IMG/VR virus record: IMGVR_UViG_3300042923_000569
Location: 195,772-259,771 of that record
Length of the DNA stretch: 64,000 bases
Direction: 5' to 3' (one strand)
Source: a virus
Position 1 is the stretch's first letter, and every line of letters starts with the position of its first letter. A program made the translations under genes and the position numbers. This document shows, piece after piece, positions 3,435-51,206 of the stretch. The notes beneath the pieces were generated by a model that ran no database searches, was not told the DNA's origin, and saw only the letters and a program-made list of their open reading frames with translations.

Positions 3435-4358
3435 TTAGAAATCGCCCGGATTGACTTGATAGACTTTTAGACCCAATAGCTTACGCCACATGTCAACAAC
3501 TTTGGTGCGATCATCAAATACTTTAACTACTTTATATTCAGTACTTACATGATTCATAAACAACTCATACTTAACAATATCATCAGGGCGGTTATCATCC
3601 GCAGCACGCATGTAGATATGGTCATAAGGAACACCGTATTTCTGCAACCACTTCTCAGTATCTTCTTTGCAAGTTTCATGGCGACCACTCATGATGATTA
3701 CCTTACGACCAAGATAGTTCTTTTCTGCCATAACAGAAAAGATAACTTCAGGATCTGGATCATCAAGTAGTACTTTGTTTTCTTCATATGGACCACGTTT
3801 ACCTTCCATATGAGCAAGAGTACCGTCAATATCTACAATGATTGCTTCTTCCAAGCCAGAATCATAAGTGAATTTTGGTAAGACACTGTACAAGTACTTT
3901 TCTGCCATACCATCAATAACTTCTTCAGGTACGGACTTTTCCCGCATTAAGTTACGTTCTTTACACTGCTTAACATAATCTTTAATAGCGAAGAATTCAT
4001 GTACGAAAGTTTTATCCTTCTTAAATTCAGTAAAGAAGTTTTGTTCTTTATAAGTGTAATTGTGTTCGCGTGCAAATTCTTTCCACTTATTACGTACTGC
4101 CGGATTTAAGTTGGTATCACCAACGATAATGTTCCAGTTATTCAAAGCTGCATGTTTAGCTGCACTGTACTGAGCGTCTTGCACGTACTGTTCATTGTCT
4201 TTGCGGAACTTATAGTTTTGGTGTGATCCAGCCATAGTCTGGCGAATGTCGTCTAAGTTTACGATTACCGTTTTAGAACGAGCACTTTTTACATGTTCTT
4301 TCGCCCAGGTCGTTTTACCGCAACCTGGTGGTCCTACTGTTACTGTCAATACTGGCAT
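3435..4358 (-). CDS. pseT: polynucleotide 5'-kinase / 3'-phosphatase (T4 PseT-like)
   Basis: Walker A GPPGCGKTTWA; phosphatase DxDGT motif (DIDGTLA); C-terminus ...VDMWRKLLGLKVYQVNPGDF closely resembles the T4 PNK C-terminus; the first ATG is M6 of the track ORF, whose own start is TTG. Confidence 0.9.
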   Translation of the reverse strand: MPVLTVTVGPPGCGKTTWAKEHVKSARSKTVIVNLDDIRQTMAGSHQNYKFRKDNEQYVQDAQYSAAKHAALNNWNIIVGDTNLNPAVRNKWKEFAREHNYTYKEQNFFTEFKKDKTFVHEFFAIKDYVKQCKERNLMREKSVPEEVIDGMAEKYLYSVLPKFTYDSGLEEAIIVDIDGTLAHMEGKRGPYEENKVLLDDPDPEVIFSVMAEKNYLGRKVIIMSGRHETCKEDTEKWLQKYGVPYDHIYMRAADDNRPDDIVKYELFMNHVSTEYKVVKVFDDRTKVVDMWRKLLGLKVYQVNPGDF

Positions 4359-4569
4359 GTTTTCCAATTCCAAATTTGTCAGAGAAATTTCTTAGTACTC
4401 GTTCTGATACACGAATACTCGCAGTGTCATTCCTGGAGCTATATTTTAAAGGTGTCCATGATAGACCATTTGCATCTAAAAACTTTAATGCACGAAAATA
4501 ATCTTTAAGTGTATTAAATTTAATTACAGTCATGTCCTGTTCAATGCTATGGCTTATTTCAACTTTCAT
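4315..4569 (-). CDS. hypothetical protein (84 aa)
   Basis: ORF track; 3' end overlaps the pseT start by ~44 nt in another frame. Confidence 0.4.
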   Translation of the reverse strand: MKVEISHSIEQDMTVIKFNTLKDYFRALKFLDANGLSWTPLKYSSRNDTASIRVSERVLRNFSDKFGIGKHASIDSNSRTTRLR

Positions 4570-4578
4570 GGAATTCTC

Positions 4579-4809
4579 CTAAATGATTATGTACTTGTCA
4601 CAGTATTTCATCGTTAGATTGAAGAATGCTCCTTCATCGAAATAAAATTCTTCATCAACGATAAAAGCTATGTCACCAATATTTTTTACGTATCCAAGCA
4701 TCTCATTTTTTTCAACGATGCTTAAAGTTTTAGCTGGAATAACAGAAAATTCATGTTCTTTATATAAGACTTTGACTGTTTGTATTGTTTCCAATTTACT
4801 CACGTGCAA
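4579..4809 (-). CDS. hypothetical protein (76 aa)
   Basis: ORF track. Confidence 0.45.
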   Translation of the reverse strand: MHVSKLETIQTVKVLYKEHEFSVIPAKTLSIVEKNEMLGYVKNIGDIAFIVDEEFYFDEGAFFNLTMKYCDKYIII

Positions 4810-5035
4810 ATCTTCCTATATCATAAATTTTAGGTTTTTTGTTTTTGGGCTTACGTTCCTTCTTATACATAGTACTGCTAACACCAAAAGTATTTTTAAG
4901 ACGCTTTGCAGACTTAACCACACCATTCCTTGAGCGGTCACTTTGCACAGCGTCTATCTCTTGTAGTATTCTTCTATGTTCTTCAGGAGTTCTTACGTCG
5001 CCCTTTTTTACTTTGTACTTAGGTTTAGCCATCAC
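4796..5035 (-). CDS. small basic protein (79 aa, Lys/Arg-rich)
   Basis: ORF track. Confidence 0.45.
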   Translation of the reverse strand: MMAKPKYKVKKGDVRTPEEHRRILQEIDAVQSDRSRNGVVKSAKRLKNTFGVSSTMYKKERKPKNKKPKIYDIGRFARE

Positions 5036-40995: not shown

Positions 40996-41640
40996 TTACG
41001 CGGCGGTATCTTCAGAGGCTACGCGGAAAGTTTCGATGAAAGTTTCGCGGTCCATGTTTTTAGAAGCTACCAGATCTTTGAGTTCCTGGCTCATGTTGCC
41101 TTTTTCCGGCATATCGTACTGTTTGCCATCGACTTCAACAGTGACGCGGTTGTATGCGTTGTTGCTGCCGGTAAGTGACGCTTTGATCTTCTTACCTACA
41201 CCAGCAACCGCCGCCTGAGCTACTGCCAGATCCACGCCACCAGCTACCAGAAGTTTGAGCATTTTTTCACGTTCTTCTTTCGCTTTCTCTTCCGCTTCAG
41301 CGTTCAGACGTTCACGTTCTGCCTGAGCTTTAACGCGGGCTTCTTCGCGGGCCGCTTCAGCACGTGCGGCTTCTTCTTTCTGGTACTGTACAGCAGCCGG
41401 GATTGCTTTAGACGCTGCAACCAGAATTTTAGAAATCACGTCAGTGTCAGTTGTTTTATCAACAAAGTACTGAGCCAGGTTAGTCGCAACAGTGTTTACG
41501 TGATCAGCAATGTCTGCTTTGTGCTGAGCCAGTACTTCTTTACTGTGTGTCTTACCTTCTTCCGGTGCCGCCAGGGTAGGAGCCTGAGCGAACAGGATTG
41601 AATTCAGTGTTACTTTAGGAGCTTTAGAAGTGTTAGTCAT
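40996..41640 (-). CDS. hypothetical Ala/Glu/Lys-rich coiled-coil protein (214 aa)
   Basis: ORF track; strong GAGGGT RBS; sigma70-like TTGACT-17-TAAATT promoter near 41700-41735 on the minus strand. Confidence 0.6.
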   Translation of the reverse strand: MTNTSKAPKVTLNSILFAQAPTLAAPEEGKTHSKEVLAQHKADIADHVNTVATNLAQYFVDKTTDTDVISKILVAASKAIPAAVQYQKEEAARAEAAREEARVKAQAERERLNAEAEEKAKEEREKMLKLLVAGGVDLAVAQAAVAGVGKKIKASLTGSNNAYNRVTVEVDGKQYDMPEKGNMSQELKDLVASKNMDRETFIETFRVASEDTAA

Positions 41641-42170
41641 GATATTACCCTCGAATTTTTTAAGTTAATTTGTTTGGCCTGATTGTTTCGGCTTGATTAA
41701 AATTTAAACTACTTGTTTCTTTCAGTCAACTACTATTTTCAACTTTCAAGAAACTTTTTTTCTTTCTATCGTCTGGAGCATTTCGCCCTTTCGATAACCA
41801 ACATCTTACACCATCCTTTCTAACTAGCAAGTACTTTTTAAAAACTTTTTTTCGTTCTATCCAAAAGAGAGTTTCTATCTTCAGGACTTGCTAGCCAGGT
41901 TGTTAAAGAGCGGTGTTCCGTGTTGATGTGGTAATAGTACACTAACCATAAAACTCTGCAAGCACTTTCTTATAAAAACTTATAACTTTTTTCATTCGTC
42001 GTTTTTCTTCCTTTATACGCGTAAAGAAACCCACAACACATAGGAAGCATTTACAGCCCTTTAAAGTACTAATCTAAGTGTTTACCAGGCGTAATCCTCC
42101 AGCCTCTTATAGTGCGTCCTATGCGTTCCTATATAGAAGAAACTATTTTCAATCTTTTTAAAGAAAATGC

Positions 42171-42198
42171 TTGCTTCTCTGATTCAGTACTGTATAAT
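42171..42198 (+). promoter_or_regulatory. AGTACT-cassette promoter on the plus strand (TTGCTT-16-TATAAT)
   Basis: aaaatgcTTGCTTctctgattcagtactgTATAATc reading into element copy 8. Confidence 0.5.
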
Positions 42199-42207
42199 CT
42201 TTTATAT

Positions 42208-42312
42208 CGAAGCGAAATTCGTTATCCCATAGGGTGCGGAGATCCGTCTATTGCTTTTTTACTTTTTCCTGGGTATAGCTCCGCACCCTATGGGAAAGGC
42301 CATTTCGCTGGC
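42208..42312. repeat. complete quasi-palindromic element (copy 8) with perfect dyad symmetry
   Basis: cgaaGCGAAAttcg; 4 nt; cccatagggtgcggag; 36-nt loop; ctccgcaccctatggg; 4 nt; gccaTTTCGCtggc. Confidence 0.65.
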
Positions 42313-42492
42313 TTGTACGTATTATTGCATAATTCGATCAGTACTGTCAACAAAAAAGAAAATTAAAATAATGCTTGATCTGGCTGGTGGCTGTGATATT
42401 ATTACCCCGTCAACACGAAAAGACAGCTATTGATTCTGCCTGGTACTAACCAGACGCGGAAGGGGAACTAATGGAAAAACGCAATGAAAAAG

Positions 42493-42620
42493 CGTTTAGC
42501 CATCTAAACGTCTAGAGTGCTAGCCACCTAGATGGATAGCCATTTAGCCGTCTAAACGTCTAGACATATAACCATCCAGAAGTACAGCCATCTTTCCATC
42601 TACACTGCCAGAAGTCTATC
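42493..42620. repeat. iteron-like cluster of CC(A/G)TCTA 7-mers
   Basis: at least 8 copies (ccatctaaacgtctag x2, ccacctagatgg palindrome, ccatttagcc, ccatccag, ccatcttt, ccatctacac, ccgtctgttg) within ~130 bp of non-coding DNA. Confidence 0.5.
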
Positions 42621-42743
42621 CGTCTGTTGATAGCAGATAGGGATAGTACACCCAAAATTTAAGTAAAGTACAACATCGATCTATCCATAATTCTTTGACT
42701 AGGATCATTACATCCTGAAATATACAATACAAAAAATAATAGC

Positions 42744-42806
42744 ACTTAGGATAGTTCCTGGTACTGTAAACATCTACAGCAGGAATTATATTAAGTGCTA
42801 TCAACG
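42744..42806. repeat. long imperfect hairpin / nested inverted repeat
   Basis: atagcactta...ttcctggtactgtaaacatctacagcaggaa...taagtgctat. Confidence 0.4.
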
Positions 42807-42935
42807 TACTTCTAATGTATATTCTCAGTACTAAAGATTCCTGAGAAAGCAGGGTGTCCAGTCAAGACAACTTCGTTACAACGTTACGAGGGGAATCTCG
42901 TATAGTACTGTTACAGTCGGGATTCACCTTCCTGG

Positions 42936-43244
42936 TTACTCTCTTCCGCAACATGGATATATCTTACCATATCTAATTTGCACGTCAAGTACTTTATTTT
43001 TAATTTCCCACATTCTAGTATTCCCTGGGACTGTTGTTTTGTCCAGTGATATCACGCTTCGGTTATAAAATTTACACAACGTTCGAAGTACTTTAAATTT
43101 AAGAATATCCTGAAACTTTTTTGTACTTTTGATGATCCAGGAAAAATCTGATAGGTACTCCAAATTTTTTAGGATTCGTCTTTTTTCTAACGCACCAACC
43201 AAGTTTTTCCCATACCTCATTGTACCTTTTTTAAAAAAGGTCAT
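42936..43244 (-). CDS. possible basic protein (102 aa) inside the 2-kb non-coding hub
   Basis: ORF track only; no clear RBS or promoter seen. Confidence 0.25.
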   Translation of the reverse strand: MTFFKKGTMRYGKNLVGALEKRRILKNLEYLSDFSWIIKSTKKFQDILKFKVLRTLCKFYNRSVISLDKTTVPGNTRMWEIKNKVLDVQIRYGKIYPCCGRE

Positions 43245-43299
43245 TTGTACAAAATGTGCTATTTACATTCGACTTCAGGAAGAGATATAGCGGCAGGGG

Positions 43300-43380
43300 G
43301 TAACAGTACTGTTATGATGTTCTTAGTACTGTTACCATACTCTTAGTACTGTTATGATGTTCTTAGTACTATATCATTAC
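43300..43380. repeat. four tandem ~20-bp direct repeats (TCTTAGTACTGTTATGATGT)
   Basis: gtaacagtactgttatgatgt / tcttagtactgttaccatac / tcttagtactgttatgatgt / tcttagtactatatcattac, about 250 bp upstream of the plus-strand operon. Confidence 0.6.
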
Positions 43381-43625
43381 TATTAATTCTCTGCAATATT
43401 AAAGTACTTTAAACATAATCATAAACCTTCGTAAACGCAATATAAGCGTGTTTGAATCCTGTAGATATCGCTGTGCATATCTCCAGCAAGCAAACAGAAG
43501 CTCTCAGAGAGCGTCCTATGCGGTTATAGGGGGTATTTGGAGGGTATATTATGGTATAGTTCTTAGGTACTGAAATGTTGTATATAGGGTAAATACCTAT
43601 AATATAATAATGGAGAGGGAAGATT

Positions 43626-44135
43626 ATGTTACCATTTTCAATAATGAATCACTACGGTAATGTAGTTGTACGGGATGATTATAAAAGATTTGTAGATGAG
43701 TTAACTAATGACAGTACTAATAAGTTAGTTACATACACACAGTCATACAGTCAGTTAAATGGTACTACATACAATAGGATTTACATGTACGGTACTAATT
43801 CGGTATCTGGAACTATGTGGGGAACACCTTATGGTTCTAGGATGACATGGGACAGTTCATTCAGTAGGGTAATACAGCATTGTTTTCCTACACAGTCTTT
43901 ATATAATGATTTTATTGCTAGTACAAATAATAGCAGGGTAGTATGTTTAGTACGTTCAGATATTACTACTGGAGAGAGTTATATAAGTTTAGCTAGGAAT
44001 GGATATACGAGTTCTACATACGGAAGATTTAGTGGTACGACTATAGATCAGTTCATATACTATGATGAAAGTACTGCTAGGGTGATGATATATAATCCTG
44101 GTACGATGAGTACGCCAGTTTTCTATTACAATTAA
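43626..44135 (+). CDS. hypothetical protein (169 aa), first of three MLPFP-N-terminus paralogs
   Basis: GGAGAGGG RBS; N-terminus MLPFSIMNHYGN shared with the next two genes. Confidence 0.6.
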   Translation: MLPFSIMNHYGNVVVRDDYKRFVDELTNDSTNKLVTYTQSYSQLNGTTYNRIYMYGTNSVSGTMWGTPYGSRMTWDSSFSRVIQHCFPTQSLYNDFIASTNNSRVVCLVRSDITTGESYISLARNGYTSSTYGRFSGTTIDQFIYYDESTARVMIYNPGTMSTPVFYYN

Positions 44136-44148
44136 TGAGGGGAGAGAG

Positions 44149-46170
44149 ATGTTACCATTTCCGGTTTTAAATAATTACGGTAATAATGTTATACCGCCGC
44201 AAAAGGGTATAAAGAAGTTTTCAGTTGGTGGTGGTGGACAGACGGTTATGTTACATTATGCCAATGGTGATTTATATGCAATAGGTAATAATAGCAATGG
44301 TAAGTTAGGTACAGGAGACACTACTGCTATAAGTGGGGCATGGAGAAGAATAATCACTGATGTTCGTTTATATACATGTTCACATACAGGTACTATAGTA
44401 ATAAAGAATGATGGTACTGTATGGTACTCAGGGAATATTACTTCTATATTCACTACTGCATTAGGTTATAATTTTCCTACTACATCTGCATTTACTGAGA
44501 TGACTTCTGCATTTAGTACATTTAGTATAGGGACGATTAAGTACATAGAGATGTATCAGGATTCTGGTCAGCGTTTTCATATGGTTGATGGTTCTGATCA
44601 GTTATGGGGAATAGGAAGTAATCAGTACAATGCATTAGGTAATGGTTCGAATACTGGTAATACGAATTGGGTATCTATAATAAATGGTTCTAGTGCTAAG
44701 AGTGTTCATCATTCATTAAACGTAACTTGGATGGAGAAGACTGACGGGACTTTCTGGAGTTGTGGTACTAATTCATTTGGTACATTGGCGAGTGGTGGTT
44801 CTACTACTACTGTATACAATAATTTCACTCTTATTAATAACTTTTCTATCAAGGCAATAAGTGTAACTCAGTACAACGTAACGTTATTATTAAATGACGG
44901 AACACTTAGAATATACGGAGTAAGTTCTTCTGGACAAGCAGGTAATGGAAGTACTTCAGCGGGTAACTTAATAAATCCATATCAGCCTGCATTAAATAAC
45001 GTTCGCGGGTTAGGAGACAGTACTGGTTCTTTATACAGTACACAAATAAAGGGTGTAATAACTCCTATGGGTGCTGGTACGAACACGAACACATTATTAG
45101 GTACAGGTATAGCGACTGATCCTACATTAACATTTACGAATGCTAATACCGGTGTTATGTCTAACTTAGATTATGCGAATTTAGATTTCTTCACATACGC
45201 GAGTAACACTGCTGGATATGCGGTTATAGGTAATGAGGTATATGCAGTAGGTAATAATGCATATACATTAGGTGGTGCTCTTAGTACTTGGACATTAATG
45301 AATACGCCATTGAGTACTTTATGGACGTCGAATCCTTCTTATAGTAATGTAGTTAACATAAGTACTGCTACACCTCCGTTATCTAGGAATGGACATGCTA
45401 CATGTAGTTATGGTGCTAACAAGTTCATTATGTACGGTGGAACTAACAGTGCTAATGCGTTGTTGAGTGATATATGGATATATGATGCAAGTACTTCAAC
45501 GTGGAGTCAGGTTCCTGCTGTTGCGAGTGCTGTTGCTAGGATTGGTGCAGGAATAAGTGTATTTGGTGATAAGTTATATATATTTGGTGGACAGAGTTCT
45601 ACTGCTACTGGAAGTACTACAAACAGTATGTACAGTGTAGATTTAGTTACTGGAGAGTTCACATTACTTACTACTACTAATACACCTTCAGTCAGGGCGT
45701 ATGCTTCTTTATGTACAGTGGGTTCGAGTTTATACGTATGGGGTGGAGCGAGTTTAAGTACATTCCATTCATTCAATCCGAGTACTAACGCATTTGTCAC
45801 ATTAACATCTTCACCTATATCTAGTGTAGTAGATGCGAATATGGAGACGGATGGTATTGATTTATACATTAACACATCGAGTAGTACTGCATTTTACAAG
45901 TACGATATAAGTACTGGATTATGGGTATTACTTGCTAATAAGCCGGTTAACAACGCATTGAAGTACGTTTATAATTCTGGTTATTTGTATGCTACAGTTG
46001 CGAGTACATCTACGATATATGCTTATAGGGTAGAAACGAACATGTGGAAAATGGTTGGTAGTACTACATTGAATACTACTAAGGGTTGTATGAGTTCTGC
46101 TGGTAAGAGTGTATATTACAGTGGTGGATTAACTGCGGTAGACAGTAATAACTTTTACAGAATATCATAA
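44149..46170 (+). CDS. RCC1-repeat plus Kelch-repeat beta-propeller protein (673 aa); candidate adhesin or host-interaction protein
   Basis: RCC1-like units (GNNSNGKLGTGDT, GSNQYNALGNGSN, GTNSFGTLASGG, SSSGQAGNGS) in the N-half; Kelch-like units (LYIFGGQ...YSVDL, LYVWGGAS) in the C-half; GAGGGGAG RBS. Confidence 0.6.
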   Translation: MLPFPVLNNYGNNVIPPQKGIKKFSVGGGGQTVMLHYANGDLYAIGNNSNGKLGTGDTTAISGAWRRIITDVRLYTCSHTGTIVIKNDGTVWYSGNITSIFTTALGYNFPTTSAFTEMTSAFSTFSIGTIKYIEMYQDSGQRFHMVDGSDQLWGIGSNQYNALGNGSNTGNTNWVSIINGSSAKSVHHSLNVTWMEKTDGTFWSCGTNSFGTLASGGSTTTVYNNFTLINNFSIKAISVTQYNVTLLLNDGTLRIYGVSSSGQAGNGSTSAGNLINPYQPALNNVRGLGDSTGSLYSTQIKGVITPMGAGTNTNTLLGTGIATDPTLTFTNANTGVMSNLDYANLDFFTYASNTAGYAVIGNEVYAVGNNAYTLGGALSTWTLMNTPLSTLWTSNPSYSNVVNISTATPPLSRNGHATCSYGANKFIMYGGTNSANALLSDIWIYDASTSTWSQVPAVASAVARIGAGISVFGDKLYIFGGQSSTATGSTTNSMYSVDLVTGEFTLLTTTNTPSVRAYASLCTVGSSLYVWGGASLSTFHSFNPSTNAFVTLTSSPISSVVDANMETDGIDLYINTSSSTAFYKYDISTGLWVLLANKPVNNALKYVYNSGYLYATVASTSTIYAYRVETNMWKMVGSTTLNTTKGCMSSAGKSVYYSGGLTAVDSNNFYRIS

Positions 46171-46180
46171 GGAGATTGAA

Positions 46181-47332
46181 ATGTTACCATTTCCAATTAT
46201 AAGTAATTTAAGACAACAGAGTATCTATAAGATACAAAAGTTTGTTGCTGGTTCATCGCACGTAGCAATATTAGGAACGAATGGACAGTTATTCACTAGA
46301 GGTGATAATACCTATGGACAATTAGGGGATACTTCTTATACTACCAACTATCAGGGCTGGCAATTAAGTTTATCAGACGTTGCTGGTGTATATGGTGATC
46401 GTTCACAGAATACGGTTGCCATTAAGAAAGATGGTACTGTGTGGGTATGTGGTAGATTTTGGACTGCTACACAGTTCGGTTTTACATCTACAACAGGTGC
46501 ACATTCATGGACTGAAATTACTTCGTACTTACCATTCAGTACTAATACTATTAAGGATATACAGGTTGGTTATCAGATGAGTGCATTTGTGCTTAATGAT
46601 GGTAGTGTATATTTTTGTGGTACGAATACGAATGGACAATTCGGTAATAACAATACTACTAACTTAACGAGTTATACCAAATCCCTAGCAACGGATGTAC
46701 AGAAGTTATATATACAGCATCCTCTTTGGCAGGGACAAAACGTTATATCATATATAGACAGTACTGGTAAGCCTTATGCCTGTGGTTATAACGGTACTAA
46801 GCAGGTATCTAGTAGTTCAACTATATCATCGTACAGTACATTCCAGTTATTATCGAGTGCAGTATATACTAGTGCAGCGATTGCTGGTACTACTAGTTGG
46901 TACATAAGAAGTAACGGCTCTGGTGATTATTGCGGGTCGGCCTCTGTATTACAGAATACAAACAGTGGTATATTGAATATGTATTCTGCTACAGGTAACG
47001 GTGCTACACAATTAGGAGAAATACAGTTAGCATCATTTGCAATTGTATATGGTTATAAAACTACTAATACGTTTTGGGCTAAGACTTACTATTCTGGTGG
47101 TGGGTCAGAACTACCACTAATGAATAATGTATCGAACAGGGCTAACTGGTTACAGCAAAGTACTATGCCGGTGAGTGCAGGTGTATATAGTGGAATGGCT
47201 ATGGGTAATTATAATAATGGATTTATATTATTCTTAGGTTCAGACCAGCAAGAAATATTTGGTGTTGGATTAATGAGTTCAAATAATGCAAGTACTGCAT
47301 TTGAGAAGTTAAGTATTCCAGAATTTAAATAA
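46181..47332 (+). CDS. RCC1-repeat beta-propeller protein (383 aa)
   Basis: classic RCC1 unit GDNTYGQLGDTS and GTNTNGQFGNNNTT; N-terminus MLPFPIISN. Confidence 0.6.
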   Translation: MLPFPIISNLRQQSIYKIQKFVAGSSHVAILGTNGQLFTRGDNTYGQLGDTSYTTNYQGWQLSLSDVAGVYGDRSQNTVAIKKDGTVWVCGRFWTATQFGFTSTTGAHSWTEITSYLPFSTNTIKDIQVGYQMSAFVLNDGSVYFCGTNTNGQFGNNNTTNLTSYTKSLATDVQKLYIQHPLWQGQNVISYIDSTGKPYACGYNGTKQVSSSSTISSYSTFQLLSSAVYTSAAIAGTTSWYIRSNGSGDYCGSASVLQNTNSGILNMYSATGNGATQLGEIQLASFAIVYGYKTTNTFWAKTYYSGGGSELPLMNNVSNRANWLQQSTMPVSAGVYSGMAMGNYNNGFILFLGSDQQEIFGVGLMSSNNASTAFEKLSIPEFK

Positions 47333-47333
47333 C

Positions 47334-47365
47334 AAAAAACCCGCCTTGAGCGGGTTTTCTTTTAT
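47334..47365. terminator. bidirectional rho-independent terminator between convergent genes
   Basis: aaaaaacccgccttgagcgggttttctttt. Confidence 0.7.
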
Positions 47366-48024
47366 CCACCATAACTATGAGAGCTTGATGAACTATGGTA
47401 AGACGAACTAGAAGCCCTGGCAGCGTTTGTACTGACAGTACTACCGAAGCCACCCCTTGTTACAGTACTTGTCACTGCGGGCTTAGGAGAGAGTGCAGAG
47501 CGTGATACAGAGGTAGTATTCGAGTGAGCAAAGCTACCGAATGAGTTTCCTTTAGCATCGACGAACTTGTTATACATAGGTGAAGATGAACGAGTACTTG
47601 AGTACAATGCCTGGCTTGGATAGTTCGATGAGCTTGAACTAAATCCGTGCATCAACGGGAACCACATAAAGGAGCTATGCGATCCTGACGTAGTTTGTAC
47701 ATTACTGGCAGTAGTACTTTGTGAGTTACACTGCCCTGTTCCGAACTCATCTTCACAATCTTCTTTAGACATATACTTAGGAGCGGTACTACTTGATTTA
47801 GCGAGTGCATTCTGGTAATCAAGAGCACAGCGGTTCTTTTGTTCTGGTGATTGAGCACGGTATTCACAGTCTTGTACTGTTTGATAGACTGTTACTTTTT
47901 CCTGTTCATCGCATCCTGTCAAGAACAATGACCCGCCAGAGATAGCAAGGAACAACGCACTGTATTTCCAGAATGTATGTACTTTACGAAAACGGTTGAG
48001 GTTAATGTTCTTAGTACGTTTCAT
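47362..48024 (-). CDS. Ser-rich lipoprotein (220 aa)
   Basis: signal peptide with lipobox LFLTGC; long Ser/Thr-rich C-terminal region. Confidence 0.65.
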   Translation of the reverse strand: MKRTKNINLNRFRKVHTFWKYSALFLAISGGSLFLTGCDEQEKVTVYQTVQDCEYRAQSPEQKNRCALDYQNALAKSSSTAPKYMSKEDCEDEFGTGQCNSQSTTASNVQTTSGSHSSFMWFPLMHGFSSSSSNYPSQALYSSTRSSSPMYNKFVDAKGNSFGSFAHSNTTSVSRSALSPKPAVTSTVTRGGFGSTVSTNAARASSSSYHSSSSSHSYGG

Positions 48025-48161
48025 TTCTTTTTATTCTTCCCGAAGGTTTTGTTTTTCTTTTTGCGTTTAACACTTGGGCGACCGCGATCATTGCTACTGG
48101 TATTCCAGATACTTGAACTACCGCCCATATCCAGGATCATTTGTTGTTCTAGGGTTAGCAT
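48021..48161 (-). CDS. small basic protein (~46 aa; below cutoff), ATGA-coupled to the lipoprotein gene
   Basis: MLTLEQQMILDMGGSSSIWNTSSNDRGRPSVKRKKKNKTFGKNKKK behind the conserved tttttaattgagaggacaattata leader. Confidence 0.4.
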   Translation of the reverse strand: MLTLEQQMILDMGGSSSIWNTSSNDRGRPSVKRKKKNKTFGKNKKK

Positions 48162-48215
48162 TATAATTGTCCTCTCAATTAAAAATCCTGTACATATTAC
48201 AGTACAGGAATTATA

Positions 48216-48545
48216 TTACTTACGTTCAGCAGCGTTGAGTACTTCAGTAGCTTGAGTATATTGACCTTCTTCTTTAACTAAAGGTTCTACTGGTTCAGTA
48301 CGTTCTACTTCAGCGGCGAACGATGCAGCTTTAACATCAGTTTCGATTTCGTTGATAAGTTTTTTGTACTCATCATACGCTACCAATGCAATGATTAGAG
48401 CTATAGCGATTACTGTTACGTACACATTCCCCAATAGCAGACCGAGAATAGCAAACGGAATTACTACATTTGGAGTAGATTTGATCTGACGCTTAATTTC
48501 GTTGAAAGTGCGTTTTGCTACAGTACTGATAAATTCGTCGTTCAT
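48216..48545 (-). CDS. small membrane protein (109 aa)
   Basis: ORF track; one central hydrophobic stretch. Confidence 0.5.
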   Translation of the reverse strand: MNDEFISTVAKRTFNEIKRQIKSTPNVVIPFAILGLLLGNVYVTVIAIALIIALVAYDEYKKLINEIETDVKAASFAAEVERTEPVEPLVKEEGQYTQATEVLNAAERK

Positions 48546-48609
48546 AGTAATTCCTCGGTTAATTATGAAATAATTATAAAGTTTAAATCGGATTAAGTCA
48601 ATGAATTTT

Positions 48610-48957
48610 TTACTTTTTACGTCTTAAAAAGAAGTTTCTTACACCTGATAAGATTGTTGCAAGTGCAGTGACTCCATATACAAGTATCAAGATACCGAAT
48701 GAGAAGATAGAACAAGTCAAATATAAAGCCCGTATCCACTCTGAACCAGTACAAAGATAAATTACTAATGATAGTACTGCAAATAATAGAAATATTGCAA
48801 TAGGTGCCATAACTTCATCATCTTTTGAACCAAGGAATTGATTAATTTTTGGAGCAATCTTATCAAATCCAAATAACCAATCCACAAATGAAATAAGGCA
48901 TATTAATAAAAAACCGAATAGATAGAGATTAGCCATAACTATTAGTACTTCACGCAT
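48610..48957 (-). CDS. small multi-TM protein, basic-tail family (115 aa)
   Basis: 3-4 hydrophobic segments; C-terminus VRNFFLRRKK. Confidence 0.55.
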   Translation of the reverse strand: MREVLIVMANLYLFGFLLICLISFVDWLFGFDKIAPKINQFLGSKDDEVMAPIAIFLLFAVLSLVIYLCTGSEWIRALYLTCSIFSFGILILVYGVTALATILSGVRNFFLRRKK

Positions 48958-49307
48958 TATGATTTACCCCTTCGTTTACGGATAGAATCACGCAGACTGC
49001 AAATATAAATGACAAATGCAGGAACTACAAACAACGCCCAAAGTAAAGTGTTATAGAAGATTGACCATGCGTTGGATGTTCCTAGTATAGCATTGAATAA
49101 AGTACCAAGACCAATTAATGAACAAATAAACACATGAAAGCCTGATACTTCGTCTAGGTCACTAACAAAAGAATCATAATAATCGGTACTGAAGAACCAG
49201 CCGATAACCAGTACTGCATAGAGTACTACAATGATGAAGAATGATGCACTATACCAATCAGAGTTTGATTGAATCAGATTATAAACACTAGCAATTGCTT
49301 CAATCAT
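48957..49307 (-). CDS. small multi-TM protein, basic-tail family (116 aa)
   Basis: C-terminus SIRKRRGKS; ATGA coupling. Confidence 0.55.
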   Translation of the reverse strand: MIEAIASVYNLIQSNSDWYSASFFIIVVLYAVLVIGWFFSTDYYDSFVSDLDEVSGFHVFICSLIGLGTLFNAILGTSNAWSIFYNTLLWALFVVPAFVIYICSLRDSIRKRRGKS

Positions 49308-49672
49308 GTACGACCTCGTTTATTTGCAAAATAACTTCTTAGTGAGATTACTGAATTGAATAACCAATTCGTTAGTACTAATAGAGAAACAGCCGCAATT
49401 AGTAAGGCATTAGTACTAAGTACACCTATGCTCATGGTATCATTATATGAATATGATGAACAGAAAAGCATAAATGAAATAATAATAACAAACATAATGA
49501 ATATGCCTACTCCGATTTCATCAATATATAAACGAACTTTGAAGTAGTAGTTGGCACAAGTTAACCAGCCGACTGAAAGTACTATAGCGGTAATTAAGTT
49601 CACGCAGTACGCAGCTATCAGTATATAATGTAGCCAATCTGGAACAGATAGATTAGTCATGTATATTTCCAA
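49304..49672 (-). CDS. small multi-TM protein, basic-tail family (122 aa)
   Basis: C-terminus SYFANKRGRT. Confidence 0.55.
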   Translation of the reverse strand: MEIYMTNLSVPDWLHYILIAAYCVNLITAIVLSVGWLTCANYYFKVRLYIDEIGVGIFIMFVIIISFMLFCSSYSYNDTMSIGVLSTNALLIAAVSLLVLTNWLFNSVISLRSYFANKRGRT

Positions 49673-50511: not shown

Positions 50512-50874
50512 CTAAATGTTTAAATTACGTTTATTAGCGAAGTACTTTCTTGATTTATGAAAGCCCACAAAGAGATAATTAATACAGTGCAGAAAACCAA
50601 AGATTAATGTTAATGCTCCAAGCATTGGCATTAATAGTAAAAACACTCGTAGCCCTACACCATCGGCTGCTAGTCCGAACATAACTAGTAAAGTTGAAAG
50701 CATACCACATACACCCAAGAAAACCGTATATGATGCTTTAAAATTGTTAGAGATTTTTGTGTAGTAATTAGAGCTTACCCAATATCCAACGAAGTAAACT
50801 ACTAAAAAGATTACAAAAATGCAAAAGGAAAACATTAAGGTACAATTAATAATATTAAAAGTTAAAGTACTCAT
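50512..50874 (-). CDS. small multi-TM protein, basic-tail family (120 aa)
   Basis: C-terminus HKSRKYFANKRNLNI. Confidence 0.55.
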   Translation of the reverse strand: MSTLTFNIINCTLMFSFCIFVIFLVVYFVGYWVSSNYYTKISNNFKASYTVFLGVCGMLSTLLVMFGLAADGVGLRVFLLLMPMLGALTLIFGFLHCINYLFVGFHKSRKYFANKRNLNI

Positions 50875-51206
50875 ATCTTATTTCTCTTCTTACCAAAGTA
50901 CTCTCTGGTTTTAGAAAGTAAATGAAATAGAAAACAAATACCAATCACAATCAATGCTACAAACGAACAGATACCTAATGTAGATATTCCAGCGTCAATA
51001 GCTGCTGAAAAATCTTTGAATATCCATTGTAATATAGAAAACTCAAGAGTTACTGCAAAACAAATACCCTCGACTATACAGTAAATCATTTTATGATTCG
51101 GATTGAGGTTAGTAATGTAATCAGCGTAAGTCAAGAACCCGACTAATGCTATTACTGCAATAGCTAGGTTAATAACACTGAGTACTGTAAAAATGTCATG
51201 CCACAT
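50871..51206 (-). CDS. small multi-TM protein, basic-tail family (111 aa)
   Basis: C-terminus KTREYFGKKRNKI. Confidence 0.55.
   Translation of the reverse strand: MWHDIFTVLSVINLAIAVIALVGFLTYADYITNLNPNHKMIYCIVEGICFAVTLEFSILQWIFKDFSAAIDAGISTLGICSFVALIVIGICFLFHLLSKTREYFGKKRNKI

What the first reader, a model, noticed from the sequence alone, without database searches (positions are those of the whole stretch)
43626..48024. Plus-strand operon of three MLPFP-headed proteins with RCC1/Kelch beta-propellers, convergent with a Ser-rich lipoprotein
This is the only plus-strand coding block in the window. It encodes three proteins with a shared N-terminus (MLPFS/MLPFPV/MLPFPI...N.GN) and divergent bodies. 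The 673-aa protein combines RCC1-type repeats with Kelch-type repeats, and the 383-aa protein is RCC1-type (GDNTYGQLGDTS). A shared N-terminal handle with variable beta-propeller heads is the architecture expected of interchangeable adhesins, decoration proteins or host-binding modules. Immediately convergent is a lipobox (LFLTGC) Ser-rich lipoprotein. In T5-like phages a lipoprotein gene next to the receptor-binding gene mediates superinfection exclusion by masking the receptor, and the juxtaposition here may be analogous.
Basis: partly seen in the sequence, partly recalled or inferred. Interest (0 to 1): 0.6.

Follow-up and report, generated by a model that had tools for sequence, protein, structure and literature searches.

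The report
Shared-handle virion proteins of jumbo phage
Three neighbouring genes of a giant bacterial virus encode different binding-type protein bodies behind the same short N-terminal tag; in related viruses that tag marks proteins found in the virus particle, while the lipoprotein gene next door looks unrelated.

Summary
Window 43626-47332 (+) carries three tightly packed genes (169, 673 and 383 aa) that all begin MLPF. The 673-aa protein is an RCC1-like plus Kelch double propeller. The 383-aa protein is a complete seven-bladed RCC1-like propeller.

The window comes from a Rak2-like jumbo myophage (GAP32/CBB/XbC2 group). The head M-L-P-F-x-[RIQ]-[MLI]-x-x-Y-G-N defines a clade-restricted multigene family of 2 to at least 12 copies per genome. 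At least five unrelated bodies carry it: RCC1, Kelch, LamG lectin, phrog_6409 and others.

In phage CBB, 9 of 11 MLPF-headed proteins are in the published virion proteome (p = 2e-8). This includes copies scattered in unrelated genomic contexts. The raw peptide table holds peptides from the head itself, so it is not cleaved off. The published papers I could search do not mention the motif.

Best reading: the head is a retained virion-docking peptide that carries interchangeable ligand-binding heads, probably accessory adhesins or decoration proteins. Whether they sit on head or tail, outside or inside, is open.

The Llp-like lipoprotein idea is not supported. The neighbour is a DUF1190/YgiB homologue with Asp at +2, which predicts the inner membrane. 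It lies behind a bidirectional terminator, is more conserved than the cassette, and occurs in phages that lack the cassette.

The parts
43305..43384 (.). Non-coding 20-bp periodic repeats (AGTACTGTTA + 10 nt, about 4 copies) 240-320 bp upstream of the first cassette gene. Possible regulatory or boundary element; function unknown.
   Evidence: the repeat finder family D1; sequence read; part of a genome-wide AGTACT excess.
43626..43670 (+). N-terminal handle of the 169-aa protein (MLPFSIMNHYGNVVV), full type.
   Evidence: family logo: information content falls to background after about residue 15.
43626..44135 (+). 169-aa MLPF-headed protein. The body is a phrog_6409 domain with no Pfam family and no solved-fold match.
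   Evidence: Orthologues are 66-77% identical in L025, Kaldavass and L042. Body residues about 60-168 are homologous to the C-terminal domain of SPN3US gp154 and gp155.
44149..44193 (+). N-terminal handle of the 673-aa protein (MLPFPVLNNYGNNVI), full type.
44206..45108 (+). RCC1-like propeller half of the 673-aa protein (residues about 20-320).
   Evidence: PF25390 at residues 20-320, 58 bits (below cut-off); phrog_4219 E = 4e-52; 29-31% identity to RCC1-type paralogues over residues 1-330.
45235..46170 (+). Kelch propeller half of the 673-aa protein (residue 363 to the C-terminus).
   Evidence: PF24681 94 bits, Kelch_1/4/6 above cut-off; PDB sequence hits to KLHDC3, KLHL12 and Keap1. The fusion is conserved as a 667-688-aa orthologue group in 5 phages.
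46181..47332 (+). 383-aa MLPF-headed protein with the short head variant (MLPFPIIS, no YGN) and a complete seven-bladed RCC1-like propeller (residues about 17-383).
   Evidence: Closest orthologue is in Serratia phage BF, 65% identical.
47334..47360 (.). Bidirectional intrinsic terminator between the two convergent stop codons.
   Evidence: Terminator scan on both strands; hairpin energy -12.8 kcal/mol on + and -16.0 kcal/mol on -.
47362..48024 (-). Neighbour, not part of the family: a 220-aa DUF1190/YgiB-like lipoprotein (lipobox LTG|C38, Asp39). It is the last gene of the adjacent minus-strand unit.

Best explanation
The three genes are a reduced local copy (3 genes, against 7 to at least 12 in relatives) of a multigene family restricted to Rak2-like jumbo myophages. 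Each protein is a 12-15-residue N-terminal peptide (M-L-P-F-[PASG]-[RIQ]-[MLI]-x-x-Y-G-N-[ITV]-[VAI]-[PV], or the short form MLPFPIIS) joined directly to a variable, beta-rich, weakly charged domain of a ligand-binding type. Here the domains are a phrog_6409 domain, an RCC1-like plus Kelch double propeller, and an RCC1-like propeller.

Proposed mechanism:
- The peptide is a docking handle that brings whichever body follows it into the virion through one common acceptor site, and it stays on the mature protein.
- The bodies are interchangeable binding heads, so one particle displays a mixture of low-copy binding modules that act as accessory adhesins or decoration for adsorption or host range.

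What is shown and what is inferred:
- Shown for relatives: virion presence, and retention of the handle.
- Inferred: that the handle is the incorporation signal, that the heads are exposed, and that they bind host or environmental ligands.
- Unknown: the acceptor, and head versus tail location.

The 'DNA condensation protein' annotation is name transfer from eukaryotic RCC1. The convergent DUF1190 lipoprotein is an independent gene of the neighbouring transcription unit.

Sub-confidences: family membership 0.95; the handle is a virion-incorporation determinant 0.7; exposed binding or adhesin role 0.5.
For: (1) Family and handle.
- All 16 annotated genes of the homologous tandem cassettes of Kaldavass and XbC2 start MLPFP..YGN.
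- 85 distinct family ORFs were collected. The logo is strong to about residue 12-15 and then falls to background. Codons vary synonymously at P3, Y10 and G11.
- A degenerate DNA pattern scan of IMG/VR finds multi-copy loci only in 348-378-kb contigs of this clade.

(2) One head, many folds. RCC1, RCC1+Kelch, Kelch alone, LamG_3 (42 bits), a weak sialidase-N lectin match, phrog_6409 and phrog_6011 bodies all carry it.

(3) Virion association tracks the head.
- In CBB, 9 of 11 MLPF-headed ORFs are in the virion mass-spectrometry table, which lists 55 of 554 ORFs. Fisher p = 2.4e-8.
- These include CBB_144 (between nrdD and nrdG) and CBB_247 (beside endonuclease VII), and all six 'CBB-specific structural proteins' named by the authors.
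- phAPEC6 gp003/005/006/007/009/010 and GAP32 gp001 were detected by mass spectrometry and carry the head; GAP32 gp002, annotated 'virion structural protein', carries it too.

(4) The handle is retained. The CBB raw peptide table holds LFEYANVIIPPNYK (CBB_536 residues 7-20), YANVIVEYATK (CBB_548 residues 10-20), LLQYGNK (CBB_553 residues 7-13) and IAPYQILYEMK (CBB_144 residues 14-24).

(5) The handle is free of the body. In the AlphaFold2 model of the 383-aa protein, residues 1-16 lie outside the propeller and residues 1-6 have pLDDT below 50.

(6) The bodies look extracellular or binding-type.
- 47-51% S/T/N/G/Y and 8.6-14% charged residues, against 29% and 24% for the window background.
- Bacterial relatives of the RCC1 body mostly carry T9SS, Big_2, SLH, Ig or flagellin domains.
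- In SPN3US gp155 the phrog_6409 domain follows a 'tail fiber; host specificity' segment (phrog_2056, E = 2.5e-19).

(7) Precedent. The PhiKZ Kelch protein gp298 is a low-abundance virion protein needed for adsorption to some strains (PMC12676376).

(8) Fast turnover. Copy number, order and content differ between close relatives. Cassette proteins are 54-77% identical to the nearest relative, against 85-91% for the conserved flanking genes.

(9) Head residues 5-9 are uniform within a genome but differ between genera, for example [AG]RM[VI]K in phAPEC6 and 121Q against PQLVQ in XbC2. This is what co-evolution with one acceptor, or gene conversion, would give.
Against: - No data exist for this phage itself. 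All proteomics come from relatives whose cassette proteins are 30-77% identical.
- No experiment shows that the handle is necessary or sufficient for incorporation. The association could reflect common descent of a family that is virion-associated for other reasons.
- The acceptor is unidentified, and no solved structure contains a relative.
- Location is unresolved. SPN3US gp154, which ends in the phrog_6409 domain, belongs to 'paralog family B', whose members were found in tailless particles and tentatively called head or ejection proteins (PMC5694885). This favours a head location, possibly internal.
- Two CBB members (CBB_550, CBB_554) and about half of the phAPEC6 members were not detected by mass spectrometry.
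- The 383-aa protein has the shortened head, and whether that form docks is unknown.
- The 169-aa model has only moderate confidence (pLDDT 70) and no fold match, so its binding function is inferred from context alone.
Confidence: 0.55

Rival explanations
1. The MLPF head is an uncleaved capsid-targeting sequence. The proteins would be packaged inside the head (inner body, inner capsid surface, or ejected with the DNA), like T4 internal proteins or the SPN3US/PhiKZ head paralogue families, and would act inside the host or in DNA organisation.
For: - A short conserved N-terminal peptide on unrelated bodies in a hypervariable cassette is the architecture of the T4 capsid-targeting sequence and IP loci (established knowledge; summarised in PMC5694885).
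- SPN3US gp154, which carries the phrog_6409 body, is a member of head 'paralog family B', detected in tailless particles.
- phAPEC6 has an inner body, and its authors proposed RCC1-like proteins for it.
- N-terminal arms of PhiKZ minor capsid proteins dock on the inner capsid surface by beta-strand addition (PMC11297242).
- Low peptide counts are compatible with minor internal proteins.
Against: - The head peptide is retained in CBB virions, and there is no conserved Glu or (L/I)xE cleavage site. Every T4 internal protein is processed.
- The bodies are lectin- or propeller-type, weakly charged and S/T/N/G/Y-rich, with extracellular bacterial relatives and LamG, Kelch or sialidase-N similarities. 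None resembles a known ejected enzyme or a DNA-binding protein.
- Rigid 40-75-kDa propellers would have to unfold to pass the tail tube.
- Detection in tailless SPN3US particles shows a head location, not an internal one.
Confidence: 0.2
2. The conserved 5' end is kept for nucleic-acid-level reasons (translation initiation or coupling, or a recombination handle for cassette shuffling), and the peptide has no docking role. Virion association would be a property of each body.
For: - Genes are packed with 9-13-nt spacers and a conserved purine-rich Shine-Dalgarno sequence.
- Codons 2 and 4 are nearly invariant (TTA 80 of 85, TTT 79 of 85).
- Heads are uniform within a genome, as gene conversion would produce.
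Against: - Synonymous variation occurs at P3 (CCA 54, CCT 27), Y10 (TAC 51, TAT 19) and G11 (GGG 31, GGA 25, GGT 9) while the amino acids are kept.
- Stand-alone members outside any cassette (CBB_144, CBB_247) keep the motif and are in the virion.
- At least five unrelated folds all being virion-associated independently is unlikely.
- About 36 variable nucleotides are a poor substrate for homologous recombination.
Confidence: 0.07
3. One reading: the convergent lipoprotein is a superinfection-exclusion partner of the receptor-binding cassette, masking the receptor as T5 Llp masks FhuA.
For: - A true lipobox is present.
- The gene lies beside the cassette in the window, L025, BF, CBB, GAP32 and fHe-Yen9-04.
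- Phage-encoded envelope lipoproteins often mediate exclusion (established knowledge: T5 Llp, Cor).
Against: - It is a DUF1190/YgiB homologue, unrelated to Llp.
- Asp at +2 in all 9 phage copies read predicts inner-membrane retention, whereas Llp is an outer-membrane protein.
- It is a separate convergent unit behind a bidirectional terminator.
- It is 85% conserved where the cassette changes in content, so it does not co-vary with the putative receptor-binding set.
- It is present in 123 phage records, including Agricanvirus jumbo phages (there about 155 kb from the phrog_6409 genes) and a 52-kb Klebsiella phage.
- It is absent next to the phAPEC6 cassette.
- The adjacency is shared synteny within one lineage, not recurrent association.
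- An exclusion role of some other kind is not excluded.
Confidence: 0.06
4. Database reading: the RCC1-like proteins are DNA- or chromosome-condensation factors acting on phage or host DNA.
For: Annotation in many records ('regulator of chromosome condensation', 'putative DNA condensation protein'), and the speculation in PMC7247149.
Against: - The name derives from the eukaryotic Ran-GEF. The fold is a generic seven-bladed propeller.
- K+R is only 4-5% and pI is 7-8.
- The same head and cassette carry Kelch, LamG and other bodies.
- Bacterial relatives are surface or secreted proteins.
- The proteins are found in virions.
Confidence: 0.03

Closest known systems
RCC1-like / Kelch-like 'structural' proteins of Rak2-like jumbo phages (GAP32 gp001/gp002, CBB_536-554 with CBB_144 and CBB_247, phAPEC6 gp001-010, 121Q gp234-248)
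   Same: Same family: same N-terminal head, same tandem cassette, homologous bodies (30-77% identity), same flanking synteny (lipoprotein, small membrane-protein paralogues). Virion presence is shown by mass spectrometry in CBB, GAP32 and phAPEC6.
   Different: The window copy is reduced to three genes. The papers I could search treat these as separate 'DNA condensation', 'kelch-like' or unnamed structural proteins. The CBB paralogue table links only 536-537 and 549-553. I found no mention of the shared head.
T4 capsid-targeting sequence (CTS) on internal proteins IPI/IPII/IPIII and Alt
   Same: An N-terminal peptide of about 10 residues, shared by otherwise unrelated proteins from a hyperplastic locus, that suffices for incorporation into the particle.
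   Different: The T4 CTS is removed by the prohead protease after (L/I)xE and the cargo is internal and ejected. Here the head is retained (CBB peptides), has no conserved Glu, and the bodies are lectin- or propeller-type. Location is unknown.
Receptor-binding proteins with conserved N-terminal anchors and swappable distal parts (T2/S16 gp38 adhesin on the gp37 tip; CBA120 TSP1-4; PhiK64-1/PhiKp24 branched depolymerases), cited from general knowledge
   Same: Several alternative binding proteins in one virion share an N-terminal attachment element and differ distally. The cassettes turn over with host range.
   Different: Known anchors are folded domains of tens to hundreds of residues on trimeric fibres or spikes. 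Here the element is a 12-15-residue linear peptide on apparently monomeric propeller or lectin domains, and no fibre partner is identified.
SPN3US 'paralog family B' (gp138-154 and others) and the PhiKZ gp131-type paralogues
   Same: Large tandem families of low-abundance virion proteins in jumbo phages with a conserved N-terminal part and variable C-terminal parts. SPN3US gp154 and gp155 end in the same phrog_6409 domain as the 169-aa protein. The PhiKZ gp131 C-terminal domain is a beta-propeller at the baseplate periphery (from memory: Sycheva 2012).
   Different: The conserved N-terminal part there is a domain of 150-290 residues (phrog_1037), not a short peptide. Family B is head-associated with unknown function.
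T4 Hoc (capsid decoration protein with Ig-like binding domains)
   Same: A non-essential, surface-exposed virion decoration carrying ligand-binding domains, proposed to help adherence. phAPEC6 shows fibres anchored at hexamer centres.
   Different: Hoc is a single gene, anchors by a C-terminal domain and has a fixed fold. No sequence relation.
T5 Llp (for the lipoprotein) and enterobacterial YgiB/YjfM (DUF1190)
   Same: Like Llp it is a phage-encoded lipoprotein beside putative binding-protein genes. With YgiB it shares homology over the full length (Pfam 122 bits; NCBIfam PRK11653 198 bits).
   Different: No similarity to Llp and a predicted inner-membrane location. Compared with bacterial YgiB: below the equivalog cut-off (223), a Ser-rich tail, and Asp rather than Glu, Ser or Gly at +2.

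Membership tests
MLPF-headed virion protein family of Rak2-like jumbo phages | Protein starts with M-L-P-F-x-[RIQ]-[MLI]-x-x-Y-G-N at residue 1 | tested here: met
   The 169-aa and 673-aa proteins carry the full motif. The 383-aa protein carries the recurrent short variant MLPFPIIS.
MLPF-headed virion protein family of Rak2-like jumbo phages | Tandem same-strand cassette with spacers of about 10 nt, in conserved synteny | tested here: met
   Spacers are 13 and 10 nt. The flanks are the same (DUF1190 gene, membrane-protein paralogues, 258-aa gene) in L025, BF, CBB and fHe-Yen9-04.
MLPF-headed virion protein family of Rak2-like jumbo phages | Bodies homologous to those of family members | tested here: met
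   Best identities: 77% (169 aa), 54% (673 aa) and 65% (383 aa).
MLPF-headed virion protein family of Rak2-like jumbo phages | Protein present in purified virions | not testable with these tools
   Shown only for relatives: CBB 9 of 11, phAPEC6 6 of about 13, and GAP32 gp001 by mass spectrometry, with gp002 annotated as a virion structural protein.
RCC1-like seven-bladed propeller (Pfam RCC1 / RCC1_2) | RCC1 repeats above the Pfam gathering score | tested here: met
   383 aa: RCC1_2 61.2 against 22, RCC1 29 against 21.7. 673 aa N-terminal half: RCC1 20.9 against 21.7 and PF25390 58 against 150, which is below cut-off; supported only by phrog_4219 at E = 4e-52.
RCC1-like seven-bladed propeller (Pfam RCC1 / RCC1_2) | Closed seven-bladed propeller fold | tested here: met
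   AlphaFold2 model of the 383-aa protein has pTM 0.83. Foldseek matches UVR8, RPGR-RLD and RCC1 at E = 1e-18 to 1e-16 over about 370 columns. The 673-aa protein was not modelled.
RCC1-like seven-bladed propeller (Pfam RCC1 / RCC1_2) | Ran-GEF or chromatin-binding activity (the basis of the 'DNA condensation' name) | not testable with these tools
   No Ran exists in bacteria. The low K+R content (4-5%) argues against DNA binding.
Kelch propeller | Kelch repeats above the Pfam gathering scores | tested here: met
   673 aa, residues 363-561: PF24681 94.2 against 50, Kelch_6 70 against 25, Kelch_1 64 against 20; PDB Kelch hits down to E = 1e-19.
T4-type capsid-targeting sequence | Short N-terminal peptide shared by unrelated cargo proteins | tested here: met
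T4-type capsid-targeting sequence | Peptide removed by the prohead protease at a conserved (L/I)xE site | tested here: not met
   Head peptides covering residues 7-20, 10-20 and 7-13 are present in CBB virion mass spectrometry. Position 9 is Glu in only 12 of 85 members. Removal of residues 1-6 alone cannot be excluded.
T4-type capsid-targeting sequence | Cargo located inside the capsid and ejected | not testable with these tools
   Only an indirect hint: SPN3US gp154 is in a head paralogue family.
T5 Llp-type superinfection-exclusion lipoprotein | Sequence or family relation to Llp | tested here: not met
   The only family hits are DUF1190 (PF06693), phrog_3739 and PRK11653.
T5 Llp-type superinfection-exclusion lipoprotein | Lipobox with outer-membrane sorting | tested here: not met
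   The lipobox LTG|C is present, but Asp at +2 (the Lol-avoidance rule of E. coli) is found in all 9 phage copies read. This is a prediction, not a fractionation.
T5 Llp-type superinfection-exclusion lipoprotein | Functional or evolutionary coupling to the receptor-binding gene | tested here: not met
   A bidirectional terminator lies between them. The lipoprotein is conserved while the cassette varies. It is present in phages that lack the cassette.
DUF1190 / YgiB family | Pfam PF06693 above the gathering score | tested here: met
   121.9 bits against 22, residues 42-201. As an NCBIfam equivalog (PRK11653) it scores 198 against 223, which is not met.

The most novel reading that the evidence does not exclude
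The 12-15-residue MLPF...YGN peptide is a self-sufficient 'plug' that loads any protein carrying it onto one acceptor site of the jumbo-phage particle, perhaps the unexplained hair-like fibres of CBB and phAPEC6. The phage would then display a mixed and rapidly exchangeable set of unrelated binding folds (RCC1, Kelch, LamG, phrog_6409 and others). This would be a natural combinatorial display system, built on a linear peptide rather than a folded anchor domain.
Probability: 0.4. Interest if true: 0.75.

Novelty: new variant of a known kind. Interest (0 to 1): 0.55.

Why it matters
If the short head is the incorporation signal, several things follow.
- It explains in one stroke why a scattered set of 'orphan' structural proteins in CBB, GAP32 and phAPEC6 are in the particle.
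- It removes the misleading 'DNA condensation' label from dozens of annotated genes.
- It gives concrete candidates for the unexplained hairs or decorations of these phages.
- It offers a minimal tag for loading foreign proteins onto a large virion, useful for display and engineering.
- It makes a question about jumbo-phage host range testable: whether these phages widen adsorption by swapping small plug-in heads rather than whole fibres.

The lipoprotein result matters less. It is a widespread phage-borne YgiB homologue with a phage-specific inner-membrane sorting signature and unknown function.

Tried and rejected
- Megablast of 43000-48500 against phage records found no close relative, only a 32-nt chance hit.
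- PDB sequence searches with all three proteins found only eukaryotic RCC1 and Kelch proteins. There was no phage structure and nothing significant for the 169-aa protein.
- NCBIfam found nothing for the three proteins.
- Rfam at E of 0.1 or less found nothing in 41000-48500. There are no tRNA genes in the window.
- The sigma-70 promoter scan gave 22 sites against 26.6 expected, so no promoter could be assigned to the cassette.
- A literature search for 'MLPFP' returned only unrelated acronyms. Searches for recent cryo-EM work on Asteriusvirus, Mimasvirus or Eneladusvirus found nothing beyond the 25-angstrom phAPEC6 study.
- The 'kelch' hit in the PhiKZ capsid paper is an author name.
- The look-up of encoding contigs for the 169-aa protein found nothing on record.
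- I considered and rejected the N-terminal strand being simply the 'velcro' closure of the propeller: the same head sits on non-propeller bodies, and it lies outside the propeller in the model.
- I considered and rejected hairs built by head-to-tail donor-strand exchange of MLPF proteins: the bodies have unrelated folds, so they cannot share an acceptor groove.
- I first read the SPN3US match as evidence for a tail-fibre tip. I tempered this after finding that gp154 belongs to a head paralogue family.

Full report
**What is there**

ORF listing confirms three same-strand genes at 43626-44135 (169 aa), 44149-46170 (673 aa) and 46181-47332 (383 aa). A convergent 220-aa gene lies at 47362-48024. 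The three are separated by 13 and 10 nt that hold GGAG-type ribosome-binding sites.

They are the only credible plus-strand genes in a window otherwise filled with small minus-strand genes. GC skew flips sign over exactly this block.

All three begin MLPF. In the six-frame translation of the 64 kb this tetrapeptide occurs only once more, in a 41-aa shadow ORF.

**Domains**

- Pfam places Kelch repeats well above threshold at residues 363-561 of the 673-aa protein. RCC1-type repeats are above threshold in the 383-aa protein.
- The N-terminal half of the 673-aa protein is RCC1-like only below the Pfam cut-offs, but it matches phrog_4219 at E = 4e-52.
- AlphaFold2 gives the 383-aa protein as a complete propeller (pLDDT 78, pTM 0.83). 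Foldseek aligns it over about 370 columns with UVR8, RPGR-RLD and RCC1.

**Where the window comes from**

The left part of the window is about 78% identical at the DNA level to Cronobacter phage GAP32, Xanthomonas phage XbC2, Pectobacterium phage CBB and Erwinia phage Kaldavass. These are 'Rak2-like' jumbo myoviruses of 350-380 kb. Exact copies of two window proteins are on record from one JGI contig of 357,873 bp. No close relative of the cassette itself is in the phage records.

**The head is a family signature**

- In Kaldavass and XbC2 the homologous locus holds eight and at least nine tandem genes. All 16 whose starts I read begin MLPFP(Q/I/R)(L/M)..YGN, whatever follows.
- A degenerate DNA pattern for MLPFx5YGN scanned over IMG/VR gave multi-copy loci only in 348-378-kb contigs of this clade. 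Isolated hits elsewhere are short or internal chance matches.
- From 85 distinct family ORFs the logo is M-L-P-F-[PASG]-[RIQ]-[MLI]-x-x-Y-G-N-[ITV]-[VAI]-[PV]. Information content falls to background after about residue 15.
- Codons at P3, Y10 and G11 vary synonymously while the residues are kept, so selection acts on the peptide.
- A second, shorter head (MLPFPIIS, no YGN) recurs on one RCC1 sub-family. The window's 383-aa protein has this form.
- Residues 5-9 are uniform within a genome and differ between genera.

**One head, many bodies**

Behind the head sit RCC1 propellers, RCC1+Kelch fusions (a conserved 667-688-aa orthologue group in five phages), Kelch propellers alone, a LamG_3/ConA-like lectin domain, a weak sialidase-N lectin-like match, phrog_6409, phrog_6011 and others.

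The three window proteins are 47-51% S/T/N/G/Y and only 8.6-14% charged. The window background is 29% and 24%. Bacterial relatives of the RCC1 body are mostly surface or secreted proteins with T9SS, Big_2, SLH, Ig or flagellin domains.

In the AlphaFold2 model of the 383-aa protein, residues 1-16 lie outside the propeller and residues 1-6 are disordered.

**The head tracks virion association**

This is the strongest evidence.

- In CBB I found 11 MLPF-headed ORFs: CBB_144, 247, 536, 537 and 548-554.
- Nine of them are in the published ESI-MS/MS table of purified virions, which lists 55 of 554 ORFs (PMC5259590). Fisher one-sided p = 2.4e-8.
- Two of the nine lie far from the cassette in unrelated contexts: CBB_144 between nrdD and nrdG, and CBB_247 beside endonuclease VII.
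- All six 'structural proteins not present in GAP32' that the authors singled out as candidates for CBB's tail hairs carry the head.
- The same holds for GAP32 gp001, detected by mass spectrometry, and gp002, annotated 'virion structural protein', and for phAPEC6 gp003/005/006/007/009/010 (p about 0.0015).
- The CBB supplementary peptide table contains LFEYANVIIPPNYK, YANVIVEYATK, LLQYGNK and IAPYQILYEMK. These are residues 7-20, 10-20, 7-13 and 14-24 of CBB_536, 548, 553 and 144. The head is therefore still on the protein in the particle.
- None of the papers I could search mentions the shared N-terminus. The CBB paralogue table links only 536-537 and 549-553.

**Most likely mechanism**

The head is a retained docking peptide that brings any body into the particle through one acceptor. 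The bodies are interchangeable ligand-binding heads present at low copy. The cassette turns over quickly:
- The window has 3 genes and its closest relative has 7.
- The order of the genes differs between relatives.
- Cassette proteins are 54-77% identical to the nearest relative, against 85-91% for the conserved flanking genes.

A Kelch protein of PhiKZ, gp298, was recently shown to be a low-abundance virion protein required for adsorption to some strains (PMC12676376). This is a direct functional precedent.

phAPEC6 and CBB carry unexplained hair-like fibres on tail and capsid. These are plausible acceptors, but that is inference.

**What remains open, and the main rival**

The body of the 169-aa protein is homologous to the extreme C-terminal domain of SPN3US gp154 and gp155. 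In gp155 it follows a segment matching 'tail fiber protein; host specificity' (phrog_2056). But gp154 is the last member of SPN3US 'paralog family B', whose members were found in tailless particles and tentatively called head or ejection proteins (PMC5694885).

So a head location, even an internal one, cannot be excluded. The T4 capsid-targeting sequence is the obvious analogue. Against it:
- The head is not cleaved.
- The head has no conserved Glu.
- The bodies have lectin- or propeller-type, extracellular-looking composition.

I put the exposed binding-module reading at about 0.5 and the internal reading at about 0.2. The 'DNA condensation' reading rests on name transfer only.

**The lipoprotein**

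- It has a true lipobox (LTG|C38) and is 21% Ser.
- It is a full-length homologue of enterobacterial YgiB/DUF1190 (Pfam 122 bits; NCBIfam PRK11653 198 bits, below the 223 cut-off).
- All nine phage copies I read have Asp at +2, while the four bacterial copies have Glu, Ser or Gly. By the E. coli sorting rule this predicts inner-membrane retention, unlike outer-membrane Llp.
- A strong bidirectional terminator (47334-47360; -12.8 and -16.0 kcal/mol) separates it from the cassette.
- It is 85% identical to the nearest relative while the cassette is reshuffled.
- Homologues occur in 123 phage records. These include Agricanvirus jumbo phages, where the gene is about 155 kb from the phrog_6409 genes, and a 52-kb Klebsiella phage.
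- Its adjacency to the cassette is shared synteny of one lineage and is absent in phAPEC6.

The Llp analogy is therefore not supported. Some other envelope or exclusion role is possible but untested.

**Verdict**

The handle-plus-variable-head interpretation is supported by proteomics of relatives and is generalised to a clade-wide family. The adhesin role and the location are inferred. The lipoprotein link is rejected.

The genes are new members of an annotated family. Recognising a short retained N-terminal peptide as the common denominator of these virion proteins appears not to have been reported, and it is directly testable.

Noticed in passing
whole window 1-64000; also L001-L004, L020, L025, L037, L040, L042, L043: The palindrome AGTACT is the most over-represented hexamer: 258 copies against 21.6 expected, about 12-fold. 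It is evenly spread over coding and non-coding DNA and both orientations. Every Rak2-like relative locus shows the same 9-20-fold excess, and unrelated jumbo phages show none (SPN3US 0 against 3.1 expected; Deimos-Minion 1 against 2.5). This is a clade-wide selected site of unknown function.
   Followed up: partly
window 43305-43384 (also 42903-42914): Four copies of a 20-bp unit (AGTACTGTTA + TGATGTTCTT or CCATACTCTT) lie in the non-coding DNA just upstream of the cassette, with an overlapping inverted pair at 43299-43336.
   Followed up: no
window 41640-43626: A stretch of about 2 kb with few ORFs lies between the minus-strand genes and the cassette. It holds a 48-bp tandem duplication (42484-42579) and a 31-nt inverted repeat (42211-42309). 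In CBB the 22-kb terminal repeat starts about 460 bp upstream of the first cassette gene (repeat_region from 355924; CBB_554 starts at 355464). This stretch may therefore mark the physical genome end or the repeat boundary.
   Followed up: no
window 48216-49672 and 50512-51206 (-): A second paralogous family: six small (109-122 aa) multi-pass membrane proteins ending in basic tails (..KRRGKS..NKRGRT..KKRNKI..LRRKK). They are only 30-49% identical to their counterparts in the closest relative, while neighbouring genes are 64-91% identical. CBB annotates the equivalents as putative membrane proteins CBB_539-546.
   Followed up: no
window 47362-48024 (-); P0113-P0157: Phage copies of the DUF1190/YgiB lipoprotein all have Asp at +2 after the lipid-modified Cys (9 of 9 read). 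Bacterial chromosomal homologues have Glu, Ser or Gly (4 read). This looks like a phage-specific change of membrane sorting.
   Followed up: partly
L047 4998-6023 (Erwinia phage Deimos-Minion gp289, gp288): In an unrelated jumbo lineage (Agricanvirus), two tandem free-standing phrog_6409 proteins (169 and 167 aa) share their own different N-terminal head, MLE(L/M)LM. This may be an independent example of the same head-plus-body design.
   Followed up: no
L051 19836-23347 (SPN3US gp154, gp155): Two adjacent SPN3US proteins (439 and 725 aa) end in the phrog_6409 domain. Both start with the phrog_1037 domain of head 'paralog family B', and gp155 has a 'tail fiber; host specificity' segment in between. 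gp155 is not listed in family B in PMC5694885.
   Followed up: partly
L004 (phAPEC6, MK817115) 2434, 3506-4810, 6063, 7325: Annotation gaps. Three MLPF-headed ORFs of 369, 396 and 244 aa are not annotated. The annotated start of gp002 lies 36 codons upstream of an MLPF start.
   Followed up: no
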